Shown piece after piece: positions 9,026 to 56,285 of a stretch of 64,000 nt of DNA (position 1 is the first letter of the stretch; each line of letters opens with the position of its first letter). The notes beneath the pieces were generated by a model. The model did not search any database and had not been told where the DNA came from. It saw nothing but the letters and a program-made list of their open reading frames with translations. Position numbers and translations under genes: made by a program. This DNA is from a virus (Duplodnaviria > Caudoviricetes): the IMG/VR virus record IMGVR_UViG_3300028888_000057; one strand, written 5' to 3'.

Positions 9026-9100
9026 GGGGCATTAACGCAACGGTAGCGTATCTGCTTTGCAAGCAGAAGGTTGCAGGTTCAAGTCCTGTATGCTCCACCA
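9026..9100 (+). tRNA. tRNA-Ala(UGC)
   Basis: GGGGCAT/ATGCTCC acceptor, TCTGC-TT TGC AA-GCAGA anticodon arm, GTTCAAG T-loop, encoded CCA. Confidence 0.9.
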
Positions 9101-9198
9101 CGACTGAGGGCGACGTTAGGGCGGTCGTAAAATAAAACTCTGAACAAGTCACTGTCAAAAGCCGGCAAATGTTTGACATACTTGACGTCGTATCTATC

Positions 9199-9267
9199 GA
9201 AGGTGTGGTGTAACGGTAACACGCGTCACCAGGAATGACGAGTCGCAGTTCGAATCTGACATCTTCG
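9199..9267 (+). tRNA. degenerate tRNA-like RNA, anticodon AGG (Pro?)
   Basis: GAAGGTG/CATCTTC acceptor, CGTCA-CCAGGAA-TGACG arm, TTCGAAT loop; C33 and imperfect T stem. Confidence 0.45.
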
Positions 9268-9401
9268 ACGTGTCGCGACTGATGTGTGGAGTTTTGATTT
9301 CTTTCGGCCATACAGAGAATGACAATCCAATGAAAGAAATAGCGGCATGGTGACAGCCGGTTGAAAAAGAAGGGCTCGCTACCCAGTCACCTTATCATTA
9401 T

Positions 9402-9488
9402 GGCTCGTTGGCGCAAATGGAAGATTCGCAAGTGATTTAAAATCACTCGGGGCATATCCCCATATCGGTTCGAGTCCGATACGAGCCA
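9402..9488 (+). tRNA. tRNA-Leu(UAA)
   Basis: GGCTCGT/ACGAGCC acceptor, AGTGA-TT TAA AA-TCACT, long variable arm, TTCGAGT T-loop. Confidence 0.85.
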
Positions 9489-9558
9489 CTGCTTCCTTTA
9501 TGGAAGCCCAACACCTCCTTTCATCATAAGGCCGCATGTCAAAGTGCGGCCGACTTAT

Positions 9559-9652
9559 CTCAGCTTAGTGTAACGGAGAGCACGACGGTCAACTGCATGC
9601 CACAGTAAACACTGTGTGACTGGATGAGACAGTTCGAATCTGTCAGCTGGGA
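9559..9652 (+). ncRNA. tRNA-like RNA with enlarged anticodon arm
   Basis: CTCAGCT/AGCTGGG acceptor, D arm, GACAG-TTCGAAT-CTGTC T arm; no 7-nt anticodon loop. Confidence 0.5.
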
Positions 9653-9697
9653 CTTGCCCATTTTCTGAATAGTGGGCATTCATTAACTAACTCTCCT

Positions 9698-9785
9698 TGA
9701 CGGTGTCTGTTTCTCAGCAAAGTCACATCGAAAGATGAAGCACTACTGGACTTAATCAGCCGTTCGATTCGGCTGGCCGTCACCA
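9698..9785 (+). ncRNA. tRNA-like RNA with acceptor, T arm and CCA but no canonical D/anticodon arms
   Basis: TGACGG../..CCGTCA-CCA, AGCCG-TTCGATT-CGGCT. Confidence 0.5.
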
Positions 9786-9786
9786 A

Positions 9787-9861
9787 TGGGGATTCGTATA
9801 TTGGCTATTACGCTCGGCTTTGACCCGAGAAAGGGCGGATCGTAACCGTCATCCCCAGCCA
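9787..9861 (+). tRNA. tRNA-Gln(UUG)
   Basis: TGGGGAT/ATCCCCA-GCCA, CTCGG-CT TTG AC-CCGAG; atypical T-loop ATCGTAA. Confidence 0.8.
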
Positions 9862-14254: not shown

Positions 14255-14341
14255 GCGAGGGTGGCAGAGTTGGCTGATCGCTCCGGTCTTGAAAACCGGT
14301 GAGCCTACTGGGCTCCGAGGGTTCGAATCCCTCCTCTCGCG
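14255..14341 (+). tRNA. tRNA-Ser(UGA)
   Basis: CCGGT-CT TGA AA-ACCGG, long variable arm, GTTCGAATCC. Confidence 0.9.
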
Positions 14342-14348
14342 CTATTAT

Positions 14349-14425
14349 GCACCCTTAGCTAAGTTGGTCGTAGCTGCGGCCTTGTAAGCCGTGTAATCAG
14401 CTGGGTTCGAGTCCCAGAGGGTGTA
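14349..14425 (+). tRNA. tRNA-Thr(UGU)
   Basis: GCACCCT/AGGGTGT, GCGGC-CT TGT AA-GCCGT, GTTCGAGTCC. Confidence 0.8.
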
Positions 14426-14510
14426 CAAACCGTCACATCCTTGCGGTATATAAATTTGGGTGTCGGCAAGCAGGGCCAAACTGCTGCAGGTGTGGTAGTC
14501 AGGCACATCG

Positions 14511-16885: not shown

Positions 16886-17092
16886 ATGAGTATCCGGTGG
16901 TATCTGGAAGATAAATCATGGTCGTATGAAATGGATCTCGCATATCCATTACGTCCATATAGGCTATACGACCCCAACGGAAAACTTCATAAAGAATTTG
17001 GGAGCTTAGATGATTTGAATCATTATGTGAAAATCATAAAAGAAGTAACTCCTGTGATCGAGAAAAACATTAAAAATAAGGTGAAAAAATGA
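16886..17092 (+). CDS. hypothetical protein
   Basis: AGGAGG RBS. Confidence 0.55.
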   Translation: MSIRWYLEDKSWSYEMDLAYPLRPYRLYDPNGKLHKEFGSLDDLNHYVKIIKEVTPVIEKNIKNKVKK

Positions 17093-17213
17093 GATTATAC
17101 GGAGCTAAAGTTTCTCAAGATTATATTCAACTTCCTAAAGGGCGGAAAAGACTGAAGCGCAGGTATCCGGCGAGCATTGTCTATCCATATTCGTGCCATA
17201 GGAGAAAATAAAA

Positions 17214-17570
17214 ATGTTTATTGATCAGTTTACACCGGAACAGATTGAACTAATTAAGAAAGAATTACAAGAAAAACAAAAGAGTCAGAAACAGGCCGTC
17301 CTTGGACTTGACGAAGAGTTGCGGAAGATGTTTCCAATTGATTATCAGAAAGCTTCAGAAGAAGAAAAAGAATTATGGCTCAATCGCAGAAGTCTCGATA
17401 AACTTTTGTATGAAATTATTGATTTGACACTTCAAAATAATTTGACATATCAACGTGCATATCGAGGAATAAAACTTCGGAGAGGTTCTCAAATTGATCC
17501 TGAGTTGAAAGAGGAATACATAGAGATGGCAAATGAGTTGATGACAATCATCAACAAACATAAGAAATAA
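17214..17570 (+). CDS. hypothetical protein
   Basis: AGGAG RBS. Confidence 0.6.
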   Translation: MFIDQFTPEQIELIKKELQEKQKSQKQAVLGLDEELRKMFPIDYQKASEEEKELWLNRRSLDKLLYEIIDLTLQNNLTYQRAYRGIKLRRGSQIDPELKEEYIEMANELMTIINKHKK

Positions 17571-17579
17571 GGAGCTATT

Positions 17580-17936
17580 ATGGGCTGGATCGTAGATCGT
17601 AATCCAACAGTTAAAGGACAATACTTGTGTACTGTTTATGAAGAAGATGAATATTATATTTGTATATGTAATTGGAATGATAAGTGGACTTGCGCATGTG
17701 ATGATGTAAATGTCATTGCTTGGCAAGCACTTCCCGAAACCTATAAAGTAACCAATAAGAAGTATATAGAAAACACAATCGATAAACTTGAAAGAGATCT
17801 AAAGAACGTCAAAAAGATTATTAGAGAAACTGATAAAAAGGGCTTACTTGATACGATTAACAAAATTGTAATTAATGCCCATATTGATTTAAGTACATGT
17901 ACAAATTTTAGCGGAGTCAAACTCTCCAAGGAGTGA
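17580..17936 (+). CDS. hypothetical protein (DUF551-like N-half)
   Basis: MGWI..P..G.YLCT..VIAWQALP. Confidence 0.55.
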   Translation: MGWIVDRNPTVKGQYLCTVYEEDEYYICICNWNDKWTCACDDVNVIAWQALPETYKVTNKKYIENTIDKLERDLKNVKKIIRETDKKGLLDTINKIVINAHIDLSTCTNFSGVKLSKE

Positions 17937-18256
17937 ACATGATTGAAGAGTATTTGAAACAACTTTATTTCTGTCATGGTCACCATTGCGACGAATGTCG
18001 AAAGCATTCCGGAGCAAATCATTGTCTTGTTTCAAGAGATTTTGATTGTCCACACGAAGCTCCGGCGTGGTTAAAAGATATTACCAATATAAATAAAACA
18101 TGCAAAATAATTCCCGAATCAGCCAATTGTAAAACATGTAAACACTATACAACATGTCCTGTGATAACCCATAAACAGTTAGCATTAGATTATGCATATA
18201 ATCGAAATCAGCCTGTTGTGGACGATAGTTTGTTACTTGAAATATTAACAAAATAA
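17933..18256 (+). CDS. Cys-rich hypothetical protein
   Basis: CxxC repeats. Confidence 0.6.
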   Translation: MNMIEEYLKQLYFCHGHHCDECRKHSGANHCLVSRDFDCPHEAPAWLKDITNINKTCKIIPESANCKTCKHYTTCPVITHKQLALDYAYNRNQPVVDDSLLLEILTK

Positions 18257-18267
18257 GGAGTGATTAT

Positions 18268-18717
18268 ATGGATCAGGAAGCCAAAGCTGATAATGGTAAA
18301 GCACGACTGACATTGGTTCCGAGAAAGATTCTTTATGACGTTGCAAGAATCAGAGAGTTCGGAACAAAGAAGTATAAAGATCCTGATAACTGGAAAAAAG
18401 TAGAAGCTTGGAGATATAAGGACGCGCTGATGCGTCATCTCTGTGCCTATCTTGATGATCCGAAGAGTGTCGATGAAGAGAGCGGCTTGCCTCATTTGTG
18501 GCATGCGGCTTGTAATATGGCTTTCCTTTGTGAGATGGAAGACTGGGAAGAAAAGAAAGAAGAAGTTGTTGAAAAACCGAAGTGTAAAGATTGCAAGTAT
18601 TGTTGCGAAGTGAATAGAGGAAATAAAGTTTATATTTGTAAAGAAGTAAGTAAATTTGGCAAGACAATCTTCAATATTGAAGCGCCGATTTGCGAAAAAG
18701 GAACAAGAAAAGAATAA
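18268..18717 (+). CDS. dATP/dGTP diphosphohydrolase domain (DUF5664) protein
   Basis: KADNGKARLTLVP..FGTKKY..NWKK..ALMRHL..DEESGLPHLWHAACN. Confidence 0.85.
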   Translation: MDQEAKADNGKARLTLVPRKILYDVARIREFGTKKYKDPDNWKKVEAWRYKDALMRHLCAYLDDPKSVDEESGLPHLWHAACNMAFLCEMEDWEEKKEEVVEKPKCKDCKYCCEVNRGNKVYICKEVSKFGKTIFNIEAPICEKGTRKE

Positions 18718-18738
18718 GCCGGAAAGGAGGGAAAAATA

Positions 18739-19278
18739 ATGGCTTTAACAAAGATTGATCTGGAAACGATGGATAATCGTAACTTTCACTACAAGGCTCA
18801 ATGGAAACCTGATGTGGAAGAGTACTACAAGAAAGCGGATGCCCAACTTGTAGCCGGAGAAATCTATTCACTGGGAGACAACCCTTCGACGAAGGAAGTT
18901 CTCGAAATGGCCCGAAGTGAAGATAGAGAAATCCATAAGCTGATTGAGTGGGATGACAGTATCGCAGCCGAAAAGCATCGGATGTATCAGGTCAGAAAGA
19001 TTATGGGTAATATCCAGATCACTGAGATCAAGCTGAAAAAAAAAGCGCCTCAGAAGATTAAGGTTCCGCTGAGAATGTTCTACCATCTGAAAGGCGAAGA
19101 AGGATATCACGCCACTCCGACTATCATCGAAAACAAAGACTTAAATGACAAACTTCTGGCAACAGCCAAGGCAGAACTGGCTGCGTTTGTCACTAAGTAT
19201 TCGATCCTCACAGAGCTTCAGCCTGTTTTCGATGCCATCAGGAGCCTGGATAATCCGCCTGATAATCCGGCGGCCTAA
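18739..19278 (+). CDS. putative partner of the RAMP-like protein
   Basis: AAGGAGG RBS; IHKLIEWDDSIAAEKHR..QVR.I motif; directly precedes the pentamer/hairpin array. Confidence 0.7.
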   Translation: MALTKIDLETMDNRNFHYKAQWKPDVEEYYKKADAQLVAGEIYSLGDNPSTKEVLEMARSEDREIHKLIEWDDSIAAEKHRMYQVRKIMGNIQITEIKLKKKAPQKIKVPLRMFYHLKGEEGYHATPTIIENKDLNDKLLATAKAELAAFVTKYSILTELQPVFDAIRSLDNPPDNPAA

Positions 19279-19284
19279 ATCAGA

Positions 19285-19700
19285 GTGCGGTTAGTACAAT
19301 AAGGGACTTGTGAGTCCCTACAACAAGAGTACACATCATATTTCAACACATCATAATGCAGGACATCACATTACAAGTCTCTTGTTGTGCTAATCGCACA
19401 AAAACAGCTTACGATATTATATAAAAGCATTAATAATAACAGTTTATTAAACTTTAATATATCATAACATATCAAAACTCAAGACATTACAATATACAAC
19501 TTCGTTGACTCTCATAAGGGCATGTATTATGTCCTACTACAATATAGAGCAATATAGGAAAAACAAGGACAAAACAACACAGTACAACACATGCTCTTAT
19601 TAGAGTCAACGGAGCATTATTCAACAGTTCTGTTGACAATAACAGAACAAATCAATAAAACACTAAAAATTACACAATCAAACAGTAAAGAACATCATTT
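19285..19700 (+). repeat. pentamer (ACA-like + NN) array with hairpin units 1 (19285-19399) and 2 (19500-19614)
   Basis: 26-27-nt arms pairing with G.U wobbles; 5-nt periodicity in loops and between units. Confidence 0.85.
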
Positions 19701-19735
19701 ATTTTTTGAAAATTATTTTTAAAGGAGAAAATATT

Positions 19736-20404
19736 ATGAAGAAGAACAATAACGAATTTGAACTGCTGAATATCGACGCCAAGGTTAAACATATGGAAGT
19801 CTACATTGAAGGAGACGGAGATCTCGTTCTGAACAAGATGAACGCCCGTACTTTCCGTGAACTGATGAATCCAGATCGTAAAGCAGCGAAAGAACAGCCG
19901 AACGTATGGGAAGACATCATCACTTCCATCCATTGGCGTGATCCTCTGGGAGTAAAGGACACTTATCAGTGTTGTGATGAAAACTTTATGAATAAGCTCC
20001 TGAAGGAAAATGCTCCGTGTATTACCCAGTTCGGTCTCATGCAGAGTCTGAAGCAGGCCGTTGTACGCAATGAGATCGATACCTATAGCACCAAGTTTGA
20101 CAATGCGGTGAATATCATCGCGGTTAATGGACTTATTCCGGTCGAAATCAGCGGCTGGTCTTTGGACAGTCGTCTGATGAGTCCGAAGCGTGGAGCCCCG
20201 ATTTCCGTGCATATCAACCATTTCCATAACTGGAAAGCACATTTTCATGTAGCTTATATGGATAACGTGTACAGTCGGGATCAGATTCTGAACGTGATTA
20301 ACCTGGCTGGATTTGGTCTGGGCATTGGCTCCGGCCGGACTTCTGGTTATGGTCGTTATCATATCACGGCTGTTGAATCCTATACGGATACTGAAGCCGC
20401 TTAA
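19736..20404 (+). CDS. RAMP/Cas7-like RNA-binding protein
   Basis: N-terminal strand VYIEGDGDLVLN; C-terminal glycine-rich loop LAGFGLGIGSGRTSGYGRY; AAGGAG RBS. Confidence 0.7.
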   Translation: MKKNNNEFELLNIDAKVKHMEVYIEGDGDLVLNKMNARTFRELMNPDRKAAKEQPNVWEDIITSIHWRDPLGVKDTYQCCDENFMNKLLKENAPCITQFGLMQSLKQAVVRNEIDTYSTKFDNAVNIIAVNGLIPVEISGWSLDSRLMSPKRGAPISVHINHFHNWKAHFHVAYMDNVYSRDQILNVINLAGFGLGIGSGRTSGYGRYHITAVESYTDTEAA

Positions 20405-20422
20405 TTCTCTGTGTACCAATCC

Positions 20423-20930
20423 GATGTGGTTGGTACCATAGAGAGCTTGTAAGCTCTTAGATCAAGATAGAGTAAATTAGAGCACGATAGAATAGGACAT
20501 AAAAGAACAGCACATAACAAGCTTTCTATGGTGCTAATCACATCAACATATCAGTGCGGTTGGCATTGTTGGAGACTTGTTCTCCGTAATACAAAACTCT
20601 GTATAACAGAAGAATCAACAACAGAACAGCACAGTACAAGTCTTCAATAGTGCCAACGGCACAAGCACACTATAAGTAAGCATAATACAGGACAGCGAAA
20701 CTACAGAACAATGCAGGAGTTTACAAAACAGAAAGTGCCAACGTTGCAGTTGGCACGTTAGAGAGCTTGTTTGGCTCTTAATGCAAAATAGCTTAGAGCA
20801 GAATAAGGTACGATACTACAAAATAGATAACGACACAACAGAACAAGCTTTCTAATGTGCTAATTGCACAAAATACAGAACATCAAACTAAAGGACAAAA
20901 GAAAACAGATAAGTACAGCACAGCATAATA
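20423..20930 (+). repeat. pentamer array with hairpin units 3 (20423-20544), 4 (20554-20662) and 5 (20745-20868)
   Basis: 26-28-bp stems with G.U pairs, shared CTTGT/ACAAG inner ends, 11-13 in-register pentamers per loop. Confidence 0.88.
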
Positions 20931-20944
20931 TTTCTGGAGGAAAT

Positions 20945-21235
20945 ATGTTTAAAGTTGGAGATATTGTTCAGCTTAAAACACAGTCAGAACTTAATGCTGA
21001 ACACATAAGATGTGATACAGGTTCAGCTTCGCATAAGTACGGTGGATCCATTTGTGAAATTATAGAGATAAAAGGCAATGGTTATAAATTAAGTCCAATA
21101 GAAAACGTTGACAATTGCCCCGATAGAGAAGTTCACGATATTTCATATTGGTACTGGTCAAATAAGAACTTGAAACCATACAATACTATTAAAGTTAATG
21201 AAATGGAAATGTTGACAATATTATCGGAGGCATAA
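20945..21235 (+). CDS. small SH3/KOW-like paralog
   Basis: MFKVGDIVQLKT..GSA.HKYGGS.C; GGAGG RBS. Confidence 0.7.
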   Translation: MFKVGDIVQLKTQSELNAEHIRCDTGSASHKYGGSICEIIEIKGNGYKLSPIENVDNCPDREVHDISYWYWSNKNLKPYNTIKVNEMEMLTILSEA

Positions 21236-21519
21236 TGTTTAATCCGGGAGACTTAGTTCAGATTAAAACAAGAGAAGAAGTATTAGAAGAAGGACGGCTG
21301 TGTTCCAAAGGTAGCGCGCTTCATAAATATGGCGGATCAATATGTAAGGTTAGAGATGGAGAAATATTTTATCGACTAGAAAGTGTTGATGTTGTTGATA
21401 ATTTACCAGATATACATCTCTCAACTATAGAAGATTGGGACTGGAGCAATCGCAACCTGAAACTGGCTTATAATCCCGAAATAAACACTAATGAGCTCAT
21501 GAATTTACTGGAGGCATAA
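21235..21519 (+). CDS. small SH3/KOW-like paralog
   Basis: GDLVQIKT..GSALHKYGGSIC; TAATG coupling. Confidence 0.7.
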   Translation: MFNPGDLVQIKTREEVLEEGRLCSKGSALHKYGGSICKVRDGEIFYRLESVDVVDNLPDIHLSTIEDWDWSNRNLKLAYNPEINTNELMNLLEA

Positions 21520-21815
21520 TGGAATACAAAGTTGGTGAACTTGTTCAGATTAAAACAAGAGACGAAATGATAGCTGAAGGATATTTTTGTAGCGAAGGAA
21601 GCGCATTACATAAATATGGAGGATCCACTTGCAGAGTTCAGCGTATCGACGGTATGGTTTGCACACTTAACCCTGTTAACATTATAGATAACTTGCCTCA
21701 TCAATACGAAAAGCCGATTGAAAAATGGAAATGGCATAGTTCAAGTCTTAAATATCCGGAAAACGAAATAAAGATTGATATAGATACAATGGTTGATATT
21801 TTATCGGAGGCATAA
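21519..21815 (+). CDS. small SH3/KOW-like paralog
   Basis: VGELVQIKT..GSALHKYGGS; TAATG coupling. Confidence 0.7.
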   Translation: MEYKVGELVQIKTRDEMIAEGYFCSEGSALHKYGGSTCRVQRIDGMVCTLNPVNIIDNLPHQYEKPIEKWKWHSSSLKYPENEIKIDIDTMVDILSEA

Positions 21816-22099
21816 TGAAATACGCAATTGGAGACAAAGTAGAAGTAATCGGCCCACCAAATTGGGACGGTAAAGACGATTATCGAATTTATTGTAATAA
21901 TAATCGAGAAGATTACGCTTTTGGAATTCATATGAGAGATAGAATCGGATTTGTTAGCGAAATAGAATCTTTATATGCCTATAAAGATAATTGTTATCAT
22001 TTGCGTAATGATACAGATGCTTATTACTATCATGCAGATTGGCTGGCTCCTGTTGAAACAATTAATGTTGAAGGACTTGAAGATCTTTTGGAGGACTAA
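21815..22099 (+). CDS. small SH3/KOW-like paralog
   Basis: IGDKV..GPPNW..YYHADWLAP. Confidence 0.7.
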   Translation: MKYAIGDKVEVIGPPNWDGKDDYRIYCNNNREDYAFGIHMRDRIGFVSEIESLYAYKDNCYHLRNDTDAYYYHADWLAPVETINVEGLEDLLED

Positions 22100-22329
22100 T
22101 GTTTTACGTAGGGGATCAGGTTAGGCTAGTTGGTTATCAAGATAACATCGACCTGATGGAGCAAAATCTTGGAAGGGTATTCACAATCACAGACAAATAC
22201 GAAAAGAATCGTGATAAGCCAGCATACTATCTGAATGATGGTTATAGATTTATTTATCGGGAAGATTGGCTTGAACCTGTTGAACAAACAATTAATACCG
22301 ATGAATTAGAGGACTTGTTAGGAGAATAG
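22099..22329 (+). CDS. small SH3/KOW-like paralog
   Basis: VGDQV..YREDWLEP. Confidence 0.7.
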   Translation: MFYVGDQVRLVGYQDNIDLMEQNLGRVFTITDKYEKNRDKPAYYLNDGYRFIYREDWLEPVEQTINTDELEDLLGE

Positions 22330-22330
22330 T

Positions 22331-22612
22331 ATGTATAAAATTGGAGATGAAGTACTCCTCAAGAAACCTGATTGGTTTCCAGAAAATAAAGTATGTATAG
22401 AGCAAGGTACATCCGGAGAAGAAACTGTATGTTTTATTGATTTAATGCTTTATGCTGTAGGACAACAAACAAGAATTAAACAAGTATATTTCGATAAAAA
22501 AGATTGTTACCTTCTTGAAAACATCGGTAACTATTGGCACGAAAACTGGCTGGAACCTGTTAATCAAGTTAATGTTGATGAAGATACATTAACAGAGCTA
22601 CTTGAGGTGTAA
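22331..22612 (+). CDS. small SH3/KOW-like paralog
   Basis: IGDEV..YWHENWLEP. Confidence 0.7.
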   Translation: MYKIGDEVLLKKPDWFPENKVCIEQGTSGEETVCFIDLMLYAVGQQTRIKQVYFDKKDCYLLENIGNYWHENWLEPVNQVNVDEDTLTELLEV

Positions 22613-22819
22613 TAATATGACTCAGGAAAAATATCGTAAGGTAAACGGTCTTGAATATGTCGGCAAACATGTCAAAAAATGGTACAAAGTAACAAGAGTA
22701 GTGGGTCCGGCTGGGCCAACAATCACGGACAGAGTCCTTGGCTTTGAAGACGCTAAGAGGATGTGTCAAGGCATGTGGGACTGGGAAGTTATCCGGGAAG
22801 AAGACGGAGCTGTGGTATA

Positions 22820-23113
22820 TTGATTCAATATTTAACCCATCAAACATATAAAACGGCAAAAACAAAGAATCCTGACATGGTTGACTTTCAGATCGTGAGT
22901 CGCCGCCAGGTTGAATTTGCAATCTGTATTCGTTTATATAGACAGAAACACGAACTGTCCTTACAACAGTTCGCAAATATCGCCAGTAAGTATGGCGTAA
23001 AGATTTCAAATGCGGATATATCATGTTATGAACGATATGTTCGTGTCCCATCGAAAAAGAAAATGGAAACAATACTGAAAGCTATGCACTTGGAACTGAA
23101 TGATTTGGATTAA
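22820..23113 (+). CDS. XRE-family HTH protein
   Basis: IRLYRQKHELSLQQFA..ISCYER..P; start codon uncertain. Confidence 0.6.
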   Translation: MIQYLTHQTYKTAKTKNPDMVDFQIVSRRQVEFAICIRLYRQKHELSLQQFANIASKYGVKISNADISCYERYVRVPSKKKMETILKAMHLELNDLD

Positions 23114-31131: not shown

Positions 31132-31412
31132 TTATCATAATGAAAACGTAGAAATACTCTTTAGATGTTATTTAAAGGAACGATTGGCTGGATGAGTAGG
31201 TCGCTGCGGGCAGGTCCTGAAGGCGCCCAGTGGAGTGTCGATCCGCTGGCAGAGAGGCTGGACGGAGGTGGCAGGTCAGCGCGATCCGACTGAAAACCGG
31301 GAAAGTGGAGATTCAAATCCGGAGAAGACGACCAATTGGATCTCGAACGCGTCCAGCGGGCCCTGGAGGAGCACCTCGTGCGGCAGCGGATTTTCCTTTT
31401 AGATTATGATAA
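31132..31412 (+). ncRNA. retron-like (msr-msd-like) ncRNA
   Basis: Terminal inverted repeat TTATCATAAT/ATTATGATAA plus four nested stems; GC-rich island directly upstream of the RT. Confidence 0.6.
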
Positions 31413-31422
31413 GGATAATAAT

Positions 31423-32547
31423 ATGATTTACATAACAAGAAAAAGAATTGCAATACCCAAACAAGTGACTTTGGAAGACATCTTGTTGGACCGAGAAATT
31501 CCGGAGTTAAAAGATATAGGAACAAGCACACTGACAAGAGTTTATCCTGAAACTCCAGATGAGCTTAAACATTGTTTCAATATTGATTTATTAATCAAAT
31601 GGTTGAATGACTTCAATGAACGACATGCTGAGCTATTCCAAAGAGATAGAAACAGTATGTATTATCAGTTCAAAATACCAAAGAAAACAGGAGGATTCAG
31701 AGAAATTGATGCTCCTGTCAAAGAGTTGCAGAGCGCGCTAACAGAAGTGGTTAATTTTCTAAAGAATCAATGCAATATTCTGTATCATACGGCGGCATTT
31801 GCCTATATCGAAGAGAGAAGCACGGTAGATTGTGTCAGAAGACATCAGAAAAACAATAGCAATTGGTTCCTGAAACTGGATATTAAGAGCTTCTTTCCAA
31901 GCACTACGCTGAAGTATCTGATGCACATCAGCAGCATGACGTATCCACTGTCGGAAATCTGCAAGGTTCCAGAGGGAAAGTCAGCGTTGGAGAGGACATT
32001 CAGTCTTGCTTTTAAAGATGGCAAATTGCCACAGGGAACAACATTAAGTCCGTTGATTTCGAACATTGTAATGTTGCCAATAGACTTTAAGGTCTTCAAT
32101 ACATTGGCAGCAAGAAAGATTGTATATACTCGTTACTGCGATGATATGATTATCTCGGCTCAGGAGAAGTTTCCGTGGCAGGAAGTTGTAAAGATTGTCA
32201 AAGATGCTTTTACAGAAATGGGAGCACCATATCGGATCAATGACGAAAAGACAAGGTTTGGATCAAAGAAAGGAAGTAACTTTAATCTCGGATTAATGCT
32301 GAATGGAAACAATGATATCACTGTAGGTTATAAGGCGAAGAAACGCTATAAAGCTGCGCTGTGTTCATTTATCCAGGATACAATCCATGGAAATCGTTGG
32401 CCGCTGGAAGATGTAACGCATCTGAACGGGCTGACAAGTTACTATCGCTATCTGGAGAAAGAATATTTTGATCAGATATGGAAAAGAGCAAGCGAAAAGT
32501 GGAACGTAGATATTGGTGCTTTGTTTAAATCATATCTATCAACGTAA
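31423..32547 (+). CDS. reverse transcriptase, retron-like
   Basis: IPKKTGGFREIDAP, AFAY..CVRRH, KLDIKSFFPS, LPQG..LSPLISN, YTRYCDD; AAGGA RBS before ATG 31423. Confidence 0.92.
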   Translation: MIYITRKRIAIPKQVTLEDILLDREIPELKDIGTSTLTRVYPETPDELKHCFNIDLLIKWLNDFNERHAELFQRDRNSMYYQFKIPKKTGGFREIDAPVKELQSALTEVVNFLKNQCNILYHTAAFAYIEERSTVDCVRRHQKNNSNWFLKLDIKSFFPSTTLKYLMHISSMTYPLSEICKVPEGKSALERTFSLAFKDGKLPQGTTLSPLISNIVMLPIDFKVFNTLAARKIVYTRYCDDMIISAQEKFPWQEVVKIVKDAFTEMGAPYRINDEKTRFGSKKGSNFNLGLMLNGNNDITVGYKAKKRYKAALCSFIQDTIHGNRWPLEDVTHLNGLTSYYRYLEKEYFDQIWKRASEKWNVDIGALFKSYLST

Positions 32548-32906: not shown

Positions 32907-34475
32907 GTGTCTTCGGTGAAGACATACCTGCAAGATCAGGTAAGGTTGGTAACGCTGAGCAGTAACGATTTATTTACAGATGATGAATATAGTCAATATG
33001 TAAAGATCGTGCAGCTAGGCAACACGTACAACGAAAGGATCGGAAAAGGAGAAGACAAGGATACTCTGAAGCCAATTCTCCGGGAAAAAGAAAAGCTCAA
33101 AGAAAAATTGTCAACAACTATTCAGAAAAGAGGGGAGAATCCTCGGGTTGTTAATCTGAACATGGTTGTTCATCATTCCAAAGACTCTCCATTTCCATTT
33201 CCGAAAGGTATTACGTGGAAAAATCTCAAAATCACACGCAGGATTGCAGAATTTTCATGTGAACTGACAAGAGCAATGGGTCTCAATAATCTGGACTGTA
33301 CGCTTGATCTGATCGTGATTAAATGGAAAGACTTGAATCTTCTGAAGCAGCTGGTACTGTATGGATTCTATATGCCGATTCTCCATGGAGACGAAGTTGA
33401 AATGAGACACTATCAGTTTCTGACTGCATCAGCCGGACAGTTGAGACGCGACAAAACAATCTTCATTTCGGATGAGATGTGGAACAAGATTCACAGACGC
33501 ATCGAGTGTGGAATGAACTGGGAAAGAATCAATGTTCATGGAGGTATCGTCGCAAATAAACTGCTGGCTTATATTGCGTTGGCTAACAGTGCTACGGATG
33601 TCTGGACGGACTTTGATATTGACCGGTGTATTGTCATAGACGATTTCGAGGCTGAAGTAACTGATCGAATGATGTATATTAAGGAAGATTATACATATGA
33701 GATCGGTAAACGAACGGTAATGATCAACCACACTGATGGATGTGGAATGATGCTGCCAACAGTCTCGAAACTGAATTTTATGACAAGACTGCCATTCATC
33801 AAAGGATTGCTTGTGAGCTTTGATTATATTAAATTCTGCAAAGTCAATAATGTTCCTCCGATTATCAAGGATATTTATGGCAAAGAACATGACCTGATTA
33901 AAGAAAATATACAGATAATCTTTACGAAGAGTATGTTCAAAGCCTATAAGTATTTTGAAAGCTTCGAAGAGTACAAAGCAGAATTTAAAGCATGTGGCGC
34001 ACAGGCCGGAATTACCAATTATGAAGAAGAGTATATTCCGGATGCGACATTGAATTATCAATTCATTCAAACACTAGTAAATTTTACTGATGAGGAGATA
34101 CAACAATTCATCAAAAATGATCATGATAAGATTGAAAAGCTTGGAACCAACAAAGATTCAATGTTGAACACGTTGGGAGCCAGAAAGGAATCTGACAATC
34201 CTTATAAAGCGGCGCTGGCATACTATCCGGAACTGTTGAGAGAAGCGTATAGCAAAGAAACGATTCGAGCGATCAGGAAGAGTATGATGCTGGATGCAAA
34301 GTCTGGAAAGATTCACTGCGAAAACAAGAGATTGTTTGCAGTACCTGATCTCTACGCCGCCTGTGAGCGGTGGTTTATGGGGATCGAAGAACCAGAAGGA
34401 TTGTTAAGGGGAAATGAAATAGCTTGTCTGCCGTATAGAAGGCATGATAAAGCAGATGTTCTAAGAAGTCCGCAT
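32907..34475 (+). CDS. YonO-like single-subunit RNA polymerase (copy 2), exon 1
   Basis: TASAGQLR, HTDGCGM, RLPFIKG, LNYQFIQTL; ends ..LRSPH at the intron. Confidence 0.85.
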
Positions 34476-35512
34476 TAACATAGGTGCCTTTACACAGTAA
34501 TGTGTATCGAAAAATGTGGTTAACCTGTAAATACAGGGTGTCGCTGAAAAGCGGCTAACGGAGAACGAACTAAACGATAGAGTTTGGAGGTGAGAAAATG
34601 AGCAAGCTTAAAGATTTAACTGGACGGATGTTTGGATTTCTTTACGTTCAAAGAAGAATGCCTAATTATGTTCAAGAAAACGGAAGAACAAGAACGAGAT
34701 GGCTAACAACGTGTCTCTTGTGTGGAAAAGCTTATGTTGCAGATGGTAGTCATTTGCTGCACGGTGATATTATTAGTTGTGGCTGTTTTAAGAACATGAA
34801 AAGCGCATTAAGAGGTCAAGAATATACAGGCGTCCAGAAACCAATTCGAGATTTGACCGGCATGAAATTTGGATATCTTAGAGTAATTGAAAGATGCGAA
34901 AATTTTGGGCCAAAAACAGCATGGTTATGTTTGTGTGAGAATTGTGGCAGTTATACAAAGGTTCGCTCGAATCATCTCCTTCGAGGATTAGTATCCAGTG
35001 ATGGCTGTATAAAGTCTGTAAGAGAAGAGCAAATGGCAAAATGGTTTAATGAACACAAAATTCCATTTGAAAGAGAATATACTTTTCCAGACTTATTAGG
35101 CGAAGGTGGAAGTAATCTAAGATTCGATTTTGGTTTAATAGACAAGAAAAATAATTTAATTTGTTTAGTTGAATATCAAGGAGAACAACATGGTTTAGAT
35201 AAAACTGGAGAGTTTGGCAGACAACAAAGAGAACAAACTGACAAACAAAAAATTGATTATTGTTTAATAAACCATCTTGCTTTTCAAAGTGTTTGGTACA
35301 ATAGAGATTTTGAAGAGCAAATGCAAGAAATCGAAAAGTTCTATCGCAAGTCAACTGCCGTGCCAAACCGGAAAACCGGAAGGTGTATCGACTATCCCGA
35401 GAGGGAGTAGGGTTCAAGTGAAACTCTTGAATTCGAAACGCCACACAACCCGTAAGGGCTGATGACATAGTCAACTCCGCTACGAAATATCGGGAAACCG
35501 ACGGTACGAAGG
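34476..35512 (+). mobile_element. group I intron in RNAP 2
   Basis: Exon ends in U with P1 GCAT/GTGC (U.G); P7 elements CGACTA..CATAGTC; terminal G at 35512; splicing restores RSPH-LA-MEH in frame. Confidence 0.85.
34598..35410 (+). CDS. intron-encoded homing endonuclease (DLTG..FG.L.V Zn repeats plus a PD-(D/E)xK/Vsr-like nuclease domain)
   Basis: Two DLTGxxFGxLxV..CxxCG repeats; LRFDF..VEYQGEQH. Confidence 0.75.
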   Translation: MSKLKDLTGRMFGFLYVQRRMPNYVQENGRTRTRWLTTCLLCGKAYVADGSHLLHGDIISCGCFKNMKSALRGQEYTGVQKPIRDLTGMKFGYLRVIERCENFGPKTAWLCLCENCGSYTKVRSNHLLRGLVSSDGCIKSVREEQMAKWFNEHKIPFEREYTFPDLLGEGGSNLRFDFGLIDKKNNLICLVEYQGEQHGLDKTGEFGRQQREQTDKQKIDYCLINHLAFQSVWYNRDFEEQMQEIEKFYRKSTAVPNRKTGRCIDYPERE

Positions 35513-38494: not shown

Positions 38495-38687
38495 TAAGTA
38501 AATAATAATCTGCAATGAGCTACCGAGTGAGAACTTGGTTCTGTTGATGTAATTAGCAGATTCGAAAAGGTAAATAATCGAGTTTCCTGGCTGCCAAACT
38601 AGGGCAGCCAGGAAACTCATAACAAAATAAATCTTAAGATTGCAGAAAAATATAAAAAAAGGGAAAAAGAAAGGAACAGAAAATATT

Positions 38688-39842
38688 ATGAACGCGATGA
38701 CGAGTGCCGTTATTGATCTCGCCAACAAACACAACTTTGACGAATGGCGGATTATCGGAGACGAATTGAAGGTTAAGGGAAAATGTCCTTTGTGCTTCGG
38801 CGGCCCGCATGGCGACCGTGACACATTCTCTATCAACACAATTACCGGAGCTTGGAACTGCAAGCGCGGCAACTGTGAAGGAATTGATGGAGCCGGAAAA
38901 ACAAGTGGAACTTTCAAAGAACTCTGTCGTTATTTCGGGGAAGAAGCTCCGGAAGGATTTGCGATGCCCCGTCAGTCTGTAGCGAAGAAAAAGAGCTATG
39001 ATAAACCTGATCCTAACAACATTAAGCCCATCACGGAAGAAATCATTCGCTATTTTGCGACCAGAAAGATTAGTGAAGAAACTCTTCAGGATTGGAAGAT
39101 TGGTTCCGACAAGGAAGGAAACATTGTGTTTCCGTTCTATCGTGACAACATCTTGACGTATGTCAAGTATCGGGTTCCAAAGAAGTTTGAAACGCTTAAG
39201 AAGGAATATGAAGAAAAGATTGCCAATCTGTTCCCTGATGAGGCGGCTAAGATCAAGAAGCCGATGAAGGAATGGCAGATGGCTAATACAGAGCCGATTC
39301 TTTATGGCATGGACAATGTGACGTTTAACAAGCCTCTTGTGATTGTCGAAGGTCAGATTGATGCGCTTTCCATGTATGAAGCAGGCGTGTCCAATGTCGT
39401 GTCCGTTCCGGCCGGATGCAATAATCTGGAATGGATTAATCTCTGCTGGGACTGGCTGGAAAAGTTTAATCAGATCATTCTCTTTGGAGATTCTGATGAA
39501 CCTGGAATGGAAATGATGTCTGTTGTTTCCAAGCGGCTGGGAGAGGATCGGTGCATGATCCCCAAAGAGTATCCTGAAGTTATCTGGAATGGGCAAGATC
39601 TTAACAGGATCTGCAAGGATGCTAATGAAATCCTCGTATGTTATGGGCCTGATTATCTTAAAGAACTGGTTGATTCATGTGAACCTGCTCCGATTAAGGG
39701 TGTATTGGAACTGTCGAAAATTCCGTTTATTGATCCGACAACTGTGCCGAGAATCATGACCAAGATTCCGCAGCTGGACAATATGATTGGCGGGCTGGGA
39801 GAAGGCGGAGTAACGATTATTAGCGGAAAAAGGGGCGAGGGT
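38688..39842 (+). CDS. primase-helicase (T7 gp4/Twinkle-like), exon 1
   Basis: CPLC..WNCKRGNC Zn finger, IVEGQIDALS, SVPAG, GDSDEPG TOPRIM, KDANE; first half of Walker A (SGKRGEG). Confidence 0.9.
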
Positions 39843-40697
39843 GGACGATTCGCCCTCGTAAAACATGGTGAACCTATAAATATAGGGTGTGCCGTAAGGT
39901 GCTAACGGGGAAGCCTAAAGCAATGCCATGGTAATCCCGTGCCAAGACTGCTGCACTAATATTCTAACAGGATGGTGATGTGCATTGAATATTAAGCATG
40001 AATTGGATATTGTTGGAAAACATTTTTTTGACAATTCTGGTTTAGAATTTGTTGTACTATGTGAAGCTGGTAGATCAGAATGCGGCAATATGTTGTATGA
40101 TATCAAATATGTAAAGTCAGGATATATAAATAAAAAAAGAAGACGGATAGAAATTAGAAGAGGAGAAGTTAAAGATAAACTAGCTCCTGTTGTATCCGGT
40201 GTGGGTTGCATTGGTGATGTAATTATTCCGAATTCAAAATGTATCAACAGAAAACTATATGAAACATGGAAAAACATGATTTATAGATGTTATAACCCAA
40301 AATGTCACTCATATAAATATTATGGTGCGCGAGGAGTTAAAGTCTGTAAAGAATGGTTATGTTTTGAATGTTTTCTGAGAGATGTAAAAGAATTAAATGG
40401 ATACAATGAAGAATTAATTATGAATAAAATGATTGAGTTAGACAAAGATATCATAAATAGATCCGCCAAAGAATATAACCAGCAAACATGTCAATGGGTT
40501 CTTGTTTCTGACAATAGAAGTGAATCTGCTAAACACAGATGGGATCAGTATAGAATGCAGCAGTAAGGTGTAACGACTATCCCGTAAGGGAGTAACGTAT
40601 TGGTGAAACTCCAATATGTGAAGTGCCATGCCTAGGACTGAACATCCTAGCGAAGATATAGTCTGATCTACATGGAAACATGTAGCTAACATAAATG
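39843..40697 (+). mobile_element. group I intron within the helicase Walker A
   Basis: P1 CGAGGGT/GCCCTCG with U.G; core CGACTA..GATATAGTC; terminal G at 40697; splicing yields GKRGEG-KST. Confidence 0.9.
39985..40566 (+). CDS. intron-encoded HNH-type homing endonuclease
   Basis: YETWKNMIYRCY..YGARGVKVCKEW..F..F..D..LDKD..TCQWV. Confidence 0.75.
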   Translation: MNIKHELDIVGKHFFDNSGLEFVVLCEAGRSECGNMLYDIKYVKSGYINKKRRRIEIRRGEVKDKLAPVVSGVGCIGDVIIPNSKCINRKLYETWKNMIYRCYNPKCHSYKYYGARGVKVCKEWLCFECFLRDVKELNGYNEELIMNKMIELDKDIINRSAKEYNQQTCQWVLVSDNRSESAKHRWDQYRMQQ

Positions 40698-47100: not shown

Positions 47101-47684
47101 ATTGCTTCACAAACTTATTGAGAGCAATTCAGATGAGCACAGCGCTCGATGCGAGACAGATTGTTATTCTCATAGAGCTGGGATATTTCAAACAGTTCGG
47201 CGGGTCTGGAAAACTGATGAAGGTCTACAATGAGTTCTTCGGTGGCGAGAACAAGCTGACAAAATCAATCAAGTCATTTGCTGAGAGACTTGAGAAATGC
47301 AGAGAATATGAGAAATCATTACCTGACGAAGAACTTTCGTACTCTACGAGACTTTATTCAGAAATGAGCAACGTTGGGATGTGCCTGACAGTTGATCCAT
47401 CCGCACCTGGAAACCTCTATTTTGTTGTCGAAGTTGACGCAAAATATGGAGTTAAATGCAAAATGTATTCTGTTCATCGTGGAAGCTCTGGCATAATACG
47501 TTTCCGCAAGGATGATTTTGCAAATAAACTTTTTAAGGCAGGAGACTGCATAGAATTACTCGAATTTAATAAGAGTCCCAAATATATTTATAAGGGTGGC
47601 GAGAAGACTCGCGTCCCGAATGAATATGATATTTGGGCGAAAAACTACAAAGTTGTTTACTCCCTCGAAAATAAAGGAGATTGA
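44121..47684 (+). CDS. dnaE: DNA polymerase III alpha-like (family C)
   Basis: PHP motifs HVHT..SEHG..HL.L.AKN..TDSHY, GRGSGA, PDLD, HPCA, KADFL, Y.F..AHA. Confidence 0.93.
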   Translation: MLCFEPYHVHTAYSNCLTQPDSTMSIMDYAKEYRNRGHKVLCISEHGNRSNVWEQFDICEAFKKDKDPKGKLQTPYEMTPIAAAETYFVPDRTQKDNRNFHLILIAKNQEGFYQLNEILSEANLTGFYYHARVDFDLLSRLDYRNFLCTSACVAGPARDPDGESYLNQLHNIFRENFYLEVQHHPQKIQVETNKRLLEFSKKYKWPLIYGTDSHYVFKEEKELRKELLLSAHITYGSEDEFLLYLPTAEEAYEMFREQGVLNKAQIEEAMENTLQLREFEGVHFTNEKKIPNAYPDLPLDRRNYLYKKMVCDEYIKKAGMPTKEEAAELHAEMDTMTNTKTADYPLIMKKVIDKGIEYGGLLTKTGRGSGASFATNFACGFSSINRLHSPVKMLPERFISEDRLANGLPDLDCNMANVEAFEKAGKEILGEWGCLPMIAYGTTKTLSAFKLLARARDAAAQKWAETDDEAIELKNQIDEFVKYYGQIDDSQSCYRKYMELLEEHGAIPFAKSNEIAKQIQNYELDVKHALENNSDDPDYDVNDDIQIESYVEEKYLDIIEESKKYKNIVTSWLPHPCAHILLDKDLRRETGVVRLKSKSGSKGEVYAAYIDGKTADAYNYLKADFLRVDVVKLIYEAFNLAGLEVMSVDELLNDVKDDEAIWKLYSNGYTQGLNQCERDASTKKVMRYKPHNVEELTAFIAGIRPGFRSMLETFLNRQHFEYGIPSLDNLLRTKAIPESFLIYDEQILRVLKAAGLPGPKAYATTKAIKKKKTEKVLAAKEEFKTGFTKYLKETEGASEEKAHEVVDQVWTIIENAANYMFCAAHAFSMACDSLYVAWLKVHYPYELYLTMLKLYDSKKNLDKIAKIISEMKRYKGINMTVGQFGQDNRDWVVDKESKTISQSLSSIRFMNKKIANQLYDLGRQSKAYMGTVYSKVKNAETKRISVEEALVEAQATMSTEEYEAYKASVEGKKFITKEITPAEYSSVDIEEPLDCFTNLLRAIQMSTALDARQIVILIELGYFKQFGGSGKLMKVYNEFFGGENKLTKSIKSFAERLEKCREYEKSLPDEELSYSTRLYSEMSNVGMCLTVDPSAPGNLYFVVEVDAKYGVKCKMYSVHRGSSGIIRFRKDDFANKLFKAGDCIELLEFNKSPKYIYKGGEKTRVPNEYDIWAKNYKVVYSLENKGD

Positions 47685-56011: not shown

Positions 56012-56280
56012 GTCAATTACCCACGACTAAAGTCGCGGGCTTGTGGAAATGAGCCTGGAGTTGACTAGCCTAAGGTTTTCGGAACCTACGTTGAGAGAGT
56101 CAGAACACCCATGGACGTATCACCTAATCTGTGGCTCTGTTGATCTTCATTAAAAGTTCTGCTGGGTAGAAACGGTGTGACGGTCACGACAAGCTCTTTC
56201 AACATTGGCGAAGGTGACATAACGGCTTCATACGCGCCGGTTTACAGCTTAAAGCGTATAAGTATTAAAGAAAGGACGTG
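56012..56280 (+). ncRNA. omegaRNA scaffold of IscB
   Basis: GTCAAT..GTTGAC closing stem, CTACGTT and CATTGGCGAAGG motifs upstream of iscB. Confidence 0.75.
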
Positions 56281-56285
56281 CCGTA

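What the first reader, a model, noticed from the sequence alone, without database searches (positions are those of the whole stretch)
19534..19593. Variable dinucleotides read as codon positions 1-2 spell an SNF2-like helicase motif
Seen: the NN series of unit 2 is CT AT GA AT GG AA GG AA AC GT AC. Adding a free third base to each gives L-(M/I)-(D/E)-(M/I)-G-(K/N)-G-(K/N)-T-V-T. Established: this is compatible with motif I of SNF2-type helicases (..D/E-M-G-x-G-K-T), which are common in phages. Other units give plausible but unverifiable strings (unit 5: AT AA GC GA GA AG CG CT AA GA CG CA GA; unit 4: AT AA CT TA GA AT CA GA GC GT). Inference: guides read two bases and skip one, ignoring wobble positions and so resisting synonymous escape, and target conserved genes of competing phages. 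I saw no SNF2 helicase in this window. Caveat: any dinucleotide string translates to something, so a single motif match could be chance.
Basis: inference. Interest (0 to 1): 0.85.

Follow-up and report, generated by a model that had tools for sequence, protein, structure and literature searches.

The report
Phage VIPR-like guide RNA array
The stretch is one guide RNA of a divergent phage VIPR system (a Cas7-like protein plus RNAs made of AYA+NN five-base repeats); published relatives do read two bases and skip one, but I found no evidence that this guide targets an SNF2 helicase.

Summary

It is one of five hairpin-closed RNA cassettes, plus one open tract. These surround a 222-aa Cas7-like RAMP gene and lie next to a conserved 179-aa partner gene, in a large sheep-gut phage. 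The same module recurs in 81 viral contigs.

This matches VIPR, described in 2026 preprints: a Vipr RAMP plus vrRNAs of GGY/NN pentamers whose NN bases read double-stranded DNA with one base skipped, usually the codon wobble position. Here the fixed triplet is AYA, not GGY, and each tract is closed by a long stem.

Family statistics lean the same way: NN usage resembles codon positions 1-2, and P-loop-like strings recur.

The SNF2 reading is not supported:
- There were no matches in 2.9 million viral contigs.
- The 17 exact matches in metagenomes and genomes lie in ABC transporter, permease, AcrB, AIR-synthase-like and PilZ genes, or in two short ORFs of no known family.
- None is in a helicase or a recognisable phage gene.

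No natural target was found for any unit. I rate this a new variant of a known kind.

The parts
18739..19278 (+). Accessory gene, 179 aa (vap-like partner)
   Evidence: Homologs lie upstream of the RAMP gene on the same strand in 79 of 81 related loci, whereas none of the eight other neighbouring genes tested is conserved. The AF2 model has pLDDT 83. It has no significant PDB match; the best weak matches are winged-helix nucleic-acid binders at Z 4.2-5.1.
19285..19399 (+). Unit 1: stem-closed vrRNA-like cassette (tract 19318-19377)
   Evidence: A closing stem of about 27 bp contains four G.U pairs and no A.C. It holds twelve AYA-NN pentamers. A mini-hairpin competes with the inner part of the 5' arm.
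19439..19498 (+). Open (unstemmed) degenerate AYA-NN tract between units 1 and 2
   Evidence: Found by the period-5 scans. Similar unstemmed tracts lie between cassettes in related loci.
19500..19614 (+). Unit 2: stem-closed cassette holding the finding (tract 19534-19593)
   Evidence: The sequence was read directly and its fold predicted. In a second strain, changes at 19508 (A>G, giving G.U) and 19528 (T>C, turning G.U into G-C in the mini-hairpin) keep the pairing.
19736..20404 (+). Vipr-like RAMP gene, 222 aa, Cas7 fold with an invariant glycine-rich loop
   Evidence: Pfam RAMPs gives E 0.0046, below threshold. The AF2 model has pLDDT 80. Foldseek matches Cmr4/Csm3 at E 8e-6 with probability 1.0. 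VIA-align gives Z 9-11 over residues 15-222. More than 2,270 unnamed relatives exist.
20423..20544 (+). Unit 3: stem-closed cassette (tract 20457-20521)
   Evidence: Fold predicted and 13 pentamers called. One sheep-gut strain lacks it precisely: a contig joins 20421 to 20554 with 13 other letters between.
20554..20662 (+). Unit 4: stem-closed cassette
   Evidence: Fold predicted and sequence read. It has 11 pentamers.
20745..20868 (+). Unit 5: stem-closed cassette (tract 20778-20847)
   Evidence: Fold predicted and 14 pentamers called. The three strain differences inside the tract are one Y-to-Y change in the fixed triplet and two changes at NN position 5.

Best explanation
The finding is the variable part of one guide RNA of a VIPR-type system carried by a large sheep-gut phage.

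The module has three parts: an accessory gene (18739-19278), a Cas7-like RAMP gene (19736-20404), and six + strand RNA tracts built of five-base repeats (fixed A-Y-A plus two free bases). Five of the tracts are closed by long stems.

The proposed mechanism is inferred by analogy with the characterised GGY/NN systems:
- One RAMP protomer binds each pentamer and sequesters the AYA triplet.
- The NN bases are presented to pair with double-stranded DNA in which every third base is skipped.
- Binding silences genes of rival mobile elements.
- The long stems probably serve as processing signals that release each cassette from a precursor transcript.

Unit 2's NN series is real and looks like the first two codon positions of a coding sequence. 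Its target is unknown. Reading it as SNF2 motif I is one of several equally good readings and has no database support.
For: Protein:
- It has a RAMP/Cas7 fold (Foldseek E 8e-6; VIA Z 9-11 over nearly the whole model).
- The glycine-rich loop is invariant across the family.
- A weak colinear profile match to the SUSP1 Vipr covers the C-terminal beta-alpha-G-loop-beta region. I identified that protein as Vipr because 8 of its 9 published contact residues match.

RNA:
- There are 289 + strand tracts against 5 on the - strand in 82 loci, all within 1.5 kb upstream or 0.5 kb downstream of the gene. They have 7-25 repeats, median 11.
- NN entropy is 1.97 and 1.98 bits.
- 89% of tracts have a closing stem of 10 bp or more, against 17% in a control.
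- Isolated non-Watson-Crick stem positions are G.U on the + strand 148 times and A.C 27 times, p = 2e-21.

Locus: a two-gene module is conserved in 79 of 81 loci, as published for vipr plus vap.

Code:
- NN usage across 139 guide lineages correlates best with sense codon positions 1-2 (r = 0.87; next best phase 0.42).
- 71 of 161 guides classify as 'sense, skip = wobble', against 54.9 +/- 4.3 after composition shuffling.
- P-loop-like strings occur in 4 guides, all in forward reading, against 0.15 expected. Excluding unit 2 and a duplicate lineage, 2 are observed against 0.149 expected, p = 0.007.

Strain turnover: one cassette is precisely absent in another sheep-gut strain, and two of the three differences in unit 5 fall on NN.
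Against: - No natural target was found. The ten-NN pattern of unit 2 had 0 hits in viral contigs.
- Nine-NN seeds of units 5, 3, 1 and 4 gave 1, 0, 3 and 3 hits, about the number I estimated for chance from an assumed, unmeasured database size. Their flanks did not extend.
- One unit 4 hit lies in an integrase gene but with NN on codon positions 2-3.
- A P-loop-like guide from a related locus had 0 hits.
- A local all-against-all test showed no enrichment for skip 0, 1 or 2.
- The within-guide phase-coherence statistic (-0.23) equals the independent-draw null (-0.21). It lies between coding simulations with skip 1 (about 0) and with skip 0, 2 or 3 (about -0.52).
- Generic + strand dinucleotide usage fits NN about as well by KL divergence.
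- The fixed triplet is AYA, not GGY, and there is no 3' tail like the one in SUSP1.
- Sequence similarity to a characterised Vipr is marginal (hhalign probability 20%; no tblastn match in GenBank phages).
- Expression and processing of the RNAs are not shown. RNA-library contigs cover only parts of the two genes and could derive from DNA.
Confidence: 0.75

Rival explanations
1. Unit 2 is aimed at motif I (Walker A region) of an SNF2-type helicase of a competing phage.
For: The string [DE]-[IM]-G-x-G-[KN]-T fits the loose pattern D/E-M-G-x-G-K-T. It arises by chance in only about 7 in a million simulated windows. P-loop-like strings recur in other guides of the family.
Against: - The x position is K/N, whereas SNF2 motif I normally has L (my knowledge of the DEMGLGKT consensus).
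- K/N ambiguity at two positions allows non-P-loop readings such as IDIGNGNTVT.
- There were no exact matches in 2.9 million viral contigs.
- All 17 exact matches in metagenomes and species genomes lie in ABC transporter, xanthine/uracil permease, AIR-synthase-like, AcrB and PilZ genes, or in short unclassified ORFs; none is a helicase.
- Allowing 3 mismatches gave no match in five related phage records or in the window.
Confidence: 0.05
2. The tracts are not guides. The AYA triplets are binding sites for a protein multimer, as the GAG/UAG triplets are for TRAP, and the NN bases are mere spacers. The RNAs would then act as scaffolds, decoys or regulators.
For: No target was found. NN behave like independent draws in the coherence test. 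The five-base period with a fixed triplet recalls the TRAP binding site (my knowledge).
Against: - The protein has a Cas7/RAMP fold, not a TRAP fold.
- Homologous systems have been shown to use NN as guide positions.
- NN usage is codon-like, and P-loop-like strings are enriched.
- Many different cassettes per locus and cassette turnover between strains fit a repertoire of specificities better than a single scaffold.
Confidence: 0.1
3. It is a VIPR relative with a different reading rule: another skip length, a short footprint, or RNA rather than double-stranded DNA as the target.
For: - The guanine-reading residues of SUSP1 Vipr (D177, W178) align with Ser and Gly here, so the RNA is held differently.
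- The best structural matches are type III Cas7 proteins, which bind RNA targets.
- The skip-1 search found nothing.
- A published natural footprint is only six units long with about 89% of read bases matched. Such a footprint would escape my exact 9-10 NN seeds.
Against: - The five-base period and the protein size are the same as in the characterised systems.
- Pooled NN usage fits a constant codon phase, which only a skip of 1 (or 4) gives, better than any other phase.
- Simulations of skip 0, 2 and 3 fit worse than skip 1.
Confidence: 0.1

Closest known systems
VIPR systems (Vipr RAMP + vrRNA; bioRxiv 10.64898/2026.04.26.720920, 10.64898/2026.04.26.720927, 10.64898/2026.10.15.759431)
   Same: - It is phage-encoded.
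- It has a lone small RAMP-fold protein with a G-loop, and a two-gene module with an accessory gene.
- Long intergenic regions carry several RNAs built of 5-nt repeats (fixed triplet plus hypervariable NN, about 9-16 units).
- There are no cas genes and no CRISPR array.
- I confirmed the published SUSP1 layout myself: GGY-NN tracts flank the 195-aa and 146-aa genes.
   Different: - The fixed triplet is A-Y-A, not G-G-Y.
- Each tract is closed by a 20-28 bp stem with a competing 5' mini-hairpin, rather than followed by a 3' tail or pseudoknot.
- The accessory gene lies upstream, with RNAs between the two genes.
- Sequence similarity to SUSP1 Vipr is marginal.
- On a low-confidence alignment, the G-loop residues that read the two guanines are replaced (D177 aligns with S199, W178 with G200) while R179 aligns with R201.
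- No target, binding or expression has been shown here.
Non-canonical VIPR-like arrays (bioRxiv 10.64898/2026.10.21.760802)
   Same: That survey reports 21 clusters (6,318 sequences) of period-5 arrays with other fixed triplets, next to Vipr-like folds. This locus is of that sort.
   Different: The text names GAC, CAC, WGT and TGH cores as examples. I could not see its figure S10, so I cannot tell whether an AYA core or the stem-closed cassette form is already listed there.
Cas7 backbone subunits of type III/VII CRISPR effectors (Csm3, Cmr4)
   Same: They share the RAMP fold (Z 9-11, 130-164 aligned residues). By homology, one subunit is expected per repeat of a guide RNA.
   Different: CRISPR Cas7 has a six-base period on an arbitrary spacer and sits in multi-protein complexes with CRISPR arrays. 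Here the period is five bases with a fixed triplet, there is no array and no other cas gene, and sequence identity is only 8-15%.
TRAP and its 11 (G/U)AG repeats in the trp leader
   Same: Both have a fixed triplet plus two or three spacer bases repeated about 11 times in an RNA (my knowledge).
   Different: TRAP is a beta-sandwich ring, not a RAMP. Its spacers carry no information. I considered it only as a way the RNA might work.

Membership tests
VIPR system | Small stand-alone RAMP-fold protein (RRM core, glycine-rich loop, thumb) | tested here: met
   Foldseek matches Cmr4/Csm3 at E 8e-6 to 1e-3 with probability 1.0. VIA-align gives Z 9-11 over residues 15-222. The G-rich loop is invariant in the family. 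Pfam RAMPs gives E 0.0046, below threshold.
VIPR system | Detectable homology to an experimentally characterised Vipr (phage SUSP1) | tested here: inconclusive
   hhalign of the family profile against the SUSP1 195-aa Vipr gave 48 colinear C-terminal columns at E 1e-3 and probability 20%. tblastn against GenBank phages found nothing.
VIPR system | RNAs of tandem 5-nt units: fixed trinucleotide alternating with hypervariable NN, roughly 9-16 units | tested here: met
   There are 289 + strand tracts in 82 loci with 7-25 units (median 11). Entropy at positions 4 and 5 is 1.97 and 1.98 bits.
VIPR system | Fixed trinucleotide is GGY, or one of the G-ending variants named in the first paper (NNNGG, YNNNG, NNNNG) | tested here: not met
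   The consensus is A (75%), C/T (92%), A (95%) with no G. A later survey accepts other cores as divergent VIPR.
VIPR system | Minimal locus: vipr plus one accessory gene, flanked by long non-coding stretches, with no cas genes or CRISPR array | tested here: met
   The 179-aa gene is conserved beside the RAMP gene in 79 of 81 loci, and none of the eight other neighbouring genes tested is. No CRISPR-like array appears in 17000-23000. No cas family was found among the ORFs I scanned.
VIPR system | vrRNAs are expressed and co-purify with the protein | not testable with these tools
   Only assembled contigs of a sheep-gut RNA library were available. They cover parts of the two genes and cannot show transcripts or RNA ends.
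VIPR system | NN read double-stranded DNA with one base skipped; natural targets lie in rival mobile elements, with the skip on the wobble position | tested here: inconclusive
   Eight collection scans (six viral, one metagenome, one genome) found no target. Family statistics lean towards sense codon positions 1-2, but the coherence test equals the null.
VIPR system | Conserved structured 3' tail after the repeat tract (SUSP1 clade) | tested here: not met
   Here a long stem closes the tract and a mini-hairpin sits at its 5' side. Published types differ in array architecture.
SNF2 helicase motif I as the target of unit 2 | The NN series with a free third base matches D-E-M-G-L-G-K-T, and real SNF2 genes carry the gapped pattern | tested here: not met
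   The string has K/N where the consensus has L. The pattern had 0 viral hits. All 17 other exact hits are in non-helicase genes. No SNF2 was found among the nine window ORFs of 300 aa or more that I scanned against Pfam.
CRISPR-Cas class 1 effector | Cas7 backbone together with a CRISPR array and other cas genes (Cas5, Cas6, Cas10 or Cas8) | tested here: not met
   It shares only the fold. There is no repeat-spacer array, and only two genes are conserved in the module.

The most novel reading that the evidence does not exclude
This would be an orthogonal VIPR lineage, abundant in ruminant and gut phages (more than 2,270 protein clusters), that uses an A-Y-A scaffold triplet read by a remodelled G-loop. 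It would package each guide as a stem-closed cassette cut out by a double-strand RNase. Its guides would preferentially copy the first two codon positions of highly conserved protein motifs, such as Walker A loops, in rival elements. That would give a second, independent 'alphabet' for noncontiguous RNA-guided DNA recognition.
Probability: 0.3. Interest if true: 0.7.

Novelty: new variant of a known kind. Interest (0 to 1): 0.55.

Why it matters
VIPR was described only in 2026, and its code has been worked out for GGY/NN guides alone.

A large, uncultured family that keeps the five-base period and the RAMP protein but swaps the scaffold triplet would show which parts of the system are essential. 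On a weak alignment, it also swaps the guanine-reading residues.

It could supply a second, non-cross-reacting protein-RNA pair for programmable silencing. It would also extend VIPR from enterobacterial and Pseudomonas phages to rumen and gut viromes.

For the scan itself, the lesson is methodological. A codon-like NN string will find in-frame matches in unrelated genes, so phase bias among hits is not evidence of targeting by itself.

Tried and rejected
- **GenBank phages.** BLAST of the locus and tblastn of the protein found nothing.
- **Rfam.** Nothing was found for the units at gathering thresholds. At E up to 1 there was only a chance microRNA-precursor hit on unit 1, and no hammerhead ribozymes between units.
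- **Exact gapped scans of unit 2.**
  - The ten-NN pattern gave 0 viral hits, 7 metagenome hits and 10 genome hits.
  - The hits are all in frame.
  - They lie in non-helicase genes, the classifiable ones ordinary cellular genes.
  - Flanking NN do not extend beyond chance.
- **Exact gapped scans of the other units.**
  - Nine-NN seeds of units 5, 3, 1 and 4 gave 1, 0, 3 and 3 viral hits.
  - I estimated about 2 per pattern by chance, assuming roughly 6e10 bases in the collection.
  - The unit 5 hit matched 6 of 10 flank bases (p = 0.02) but sits in a 54% GC contig.
  - The unit 4 hits lie in a tyrosine integrase with the wrong codon phase.
- **P-loop-like guide from L026.** It gave 0 hits.
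- **Mismatch-tolerant search of unit 2.** It found nothing in five related phage records or in the window.
- **Local all-against-all test.** 161 guides against 1.1 Mb with skip 0, 1 or 2 showed no enrichment over shuffled guides.
- **Phase-coherence likelihood test.** The result was indistinguishable from independent draws.
- **Plus against minus strand folding energy.** It did not separate the strands. The unbiased count of G.U against A.C did.
- **Promoter and terminator scan.** The counts were not above shuffles.
- **Accessory protein.** It had no significant family or fold match.
- **Whole genome.** None is held for this window, so the host could not be identified and its prophages could not be searched.
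- **RNA-library contigs.** They cover parts of both genes only, which says nothing about vrRNA expression.
- **Earlier working idea.** I first considered a TRAP-like spacer reading. I dropped it as the main reading once the RAMP fold and the VIPR papers were in hand.

Full report
**1. The observation**

Read in steps of five, window 19534-19593 consists of pentamers with a fixed A-Y-A-like triplet followed by two free bases.

The first pentamer (CTA-CT) is not canonical. The translation with a free third base is correct.

A simple scan for Y-A every five bases finds such tracts at five places in the 64-kb window. All are on the + strand and all lie between 19314 and 20853.

**2. What surrounds it**

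The tract is the loop of a hairpin cassette (19500-19614). Four more cassettes lie at 19285-19399, 20423-20544, 20554-20662 and 20745-20868, and an open tract lies at 19439-19498.

Both intergenic blocks fold far better than shuffles (z -12 and -10). Each cassette has a stem of about 26-28 bp. Each also has a short hairpin that competes with the inner part of the 5' arm.

Between the blocks lies a 222-aa gene (19736-20404):
- Its only sequence-level hits are sub-threshold matches to RAMP, Csm4 and Cas6 profiles, confined to its C-terminal part and covering the glycine-rich loop.
- Its AlphaFold model (pLDDT 80) matches Cas7-family subunits of type III and type VII effectors. Foldseek gives E down to 8e-6 at probability 1.0. 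VIA-align gives Z 9-11 with 130-164 aligned residues over nearly the whole chain.

The family is large, with more than 2,270 clusters, and unnamed. Its nearest Atlas clusters are viral.

**3. Comparative evidence**

I fetched 81 viral contigs that encode relatives with 52-66% identity.

- Across these loci and the window, 289 AYA-NN tracts lie on the gene's strand and 5 on the other. Tracts occur in 72 of 82 loci.
- All lie within 1.5 kb upstream or 0.5 kb downstream of the gene. They have 7-25 units, median 11.
- Position 1 is A in 75%, position 2 is C or T in 92% and position 3 is A in 95%. The values for positions 2 and 3 are partly fixed by my detection rule; position 1 and the NN are free.
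- The NN positions carry 1.97 and 1.98 bits of entropy.
- 89% of tracts have a closing stem of at least 10 bp, against 17% when the flanks are mismatched at random.
- In 112 distinct cassettes, isolated non-Watson-Crick stem positions are G.U on the + strand 148 times and A.C 27 times (p = 2e-21). Selection therefore acts on a + strand RNA.
- The upstream 179-aa gene is conserved in 79 of 81 loci, while none of the eight other neighbouring genes tested is. Its model has no significant match, only weak winged-helix-like ones.

**4. Identity**

The literature search turned up VIPR, described in 10.64898/2026.04.26.720920:
- It is phage-encoded, with a lone ancestral RAMP (Vipr) plus an accessory gene.
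- Its vrRNAs have 9-16 pentamers in which GGY alternates with hypervariable NN.
- The NN pair with double-stranded DNA in which one base per unit is skipped, overwhelmingly the codon wobble position.
- Its natural targets are satellites and prophages.

Two further preprints add detail. Cryo-EM shows one protomer per repeat, with named residues holding GGY (10.64898/2026.04.26.720927). A follow-up shows that wobble skipping blocks mutational escape of a satellite recombinase gene. The footprint there is only six units long, with about 89% of read bases matched (10.64898/2026.10.15.759431).

I checked the type example myself. In phage SUSP1, GGY-NN tracts flank a 195-aa and a 146-aa gene. The 195-aa protein carries 8 of the 9 published contact residues at the stated numbers.

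The profile of my family aligns to it only over the last 48 columns (E 1e-3, probability 20%). On that weak alignment:
- the two guanine-reading residues D177 and W178 fall on the invariant S199 and G200;
- R179 falls on the invariant R201.

This would fit a changed scaffold triplet, but it is an inference.

The first paper lists only G-ending variant cores. A later survey reports 21 clusters with other cores (GAC, CAC, WGT and TGH are given as examples) next to Vipr-like folds. I could not see the figures, so I cannot say whether AYA is already listed.

**5.

*Targets of unit 2*

- The ten-NN pattern of unit 2 has no exact match in 2.9 million viral contigs.
- It has 7 matches in metagenome contigs and 10 in species genomes.
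- All 17 are in frame, with NN on codon positions 1-2.
- They lie in an ABC transporter, a xanthine/uracil permease, an AIR-synthase-like gene conserved in Mucilaginibacter, AcrB and a PilZ protein. Two further hits sit in short ORFs with no Pfam match, and the eighth distinct ORF, 40 aa in L085, was not scanned.
- The flanking NN do not extend beyond chance. None of the hits is a helicase or lies in a recognisable phage gene.

The uniform phase shows that the string is codon-like, with a purine at the first base of all ten NN. Phase bias among hits is therefore expected and proves nothing by itself.

*Targets of the other units*

- Nine-NN seeds of the other four cassettes gave 1, 0, 3 and 3 viral hits. 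This is about the number I estimated for chance from an assumed, unmeasured collection size.
- The unit 4 hits fall in a tyrosine integrase, but with NN on codon positions 2-3.
- There is no self-target in the window, and no target in five related phage genomes.

*Family statistics*

- NN usage in 139 guide lineages correlates best with sense codon positions 1-2 (r = 0.87; next best phase 0.42). Generic + strand dinucleotide usage fits about as well by KL divergence.
- 71 of 161 guides classify as 'sense, skip = wobble', against 54.9 +/- 4.3 after shuffling.
- Strings of the form G-x-G-[KN]-[TS] occur in four guides, all in forward reading, against 0.15 expected. Leaving out unit 2 and a duplicate lineage, two are observed against 0.149 expected (p = 0.007).
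- A likelihood test of constant against rotating codon phase gives -0.23. This equals the independent-draw null (-0.21), falls below coding simulations with skip 1 (about 0), and lies above those with skip 0, 2 or 3 (about -0.52).

Taken together, the 'codon positions 1-2' idea is favoured but not shown for this variant. A P-loop-coding target is a fair guess. SNF2 in particular has nothing behind it.

**6. Strain comparison**

The locus occurs in sheep-gut metagenomes.

- One strain lacks unit 3 exactly: a contig joins 20421 to 20554.
- In unit 5 that strain differs at one Y-to-Y position of a fixed triplet and at two NN positions.
- In unit 2 its listed changes keep or improve pairing in the stem and the mini-hairpin. 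Five of the 31 differences on that contig are not listed by the tool, so I cannot say the tracts of units 1 and 2 are identical.

**7. Verdict**

This is a real, strongly supported RNA-protein module of the VIPR kind with a non-canonical AYA/NN repeat and stem-closed cassettes. The SNF2 target is unsupported, and no natural target is known.

Noticed in passing
window 56012-57590: A HEARO RNA (Rfam 128 bits) sits directly upstream of a 434-aa ORF with RRXRR and HNH domains. This is an IscB-type RNA-guided nuclease with its omega RNA, inside the phage.
   Followed up: partly
window 31336-32547: A 403-aa reverse transcriptase (RVT_1, E 9e-22).
   Followed up: no
window 44121-47684 and 38640-39905: The phage encodes its own DNA polymerase III alpha-type replicase (PHP, finger and NTPase domains) and a Toprim primase-like protein.
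   Followed up: no
window 32907-34478: A 523-aa ORF has a weak match to the eukaryote-type RNA-dependent RNA polymerase family (PF05183, E 7e-6, just above the cut-off).
   Followed up: no
window 9026-9861 and 14255-14426: Seven tRNA genes lie in two clusters (Ala, Pro, Leu, two Gln, Ser, Thr). This fits a large lytic phage.
   Followed up: no
L103 13764-13789 and L104 2894-2919: The nine central NN of unit 4 match, with one base skipped, the catalytic C-terminal region of a tyrosine integrase in two related 29-kb viral contigs (20 of 22 read bases match). NN fall on codon positions 2-3, and the number of hits is at the chance level I estimated. I note it because published VIPRs target satellite recombinases.
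   Followed up: partly
window 19285-19297, 20554-20566 and the matching 3' arms: The outer roughly 13 nt of the stem arms are similar between units 1, 3, 4 and 5 and in relatives L006 and L008: a GTGCGGTTGG-like 5' side and a GTGCTAATCGCAC-like 3' side, with conserved G.U pairs. This may be a shared processing or recognition site.
   Followed up: partly
window 18268-18717: The gene just upstream of the module encodes a protein with a dATP/dGTP diphosphohydrolase N-terminal domain (E 1e-26). It is not conserved next to the module in other phages.
   Followed up: no
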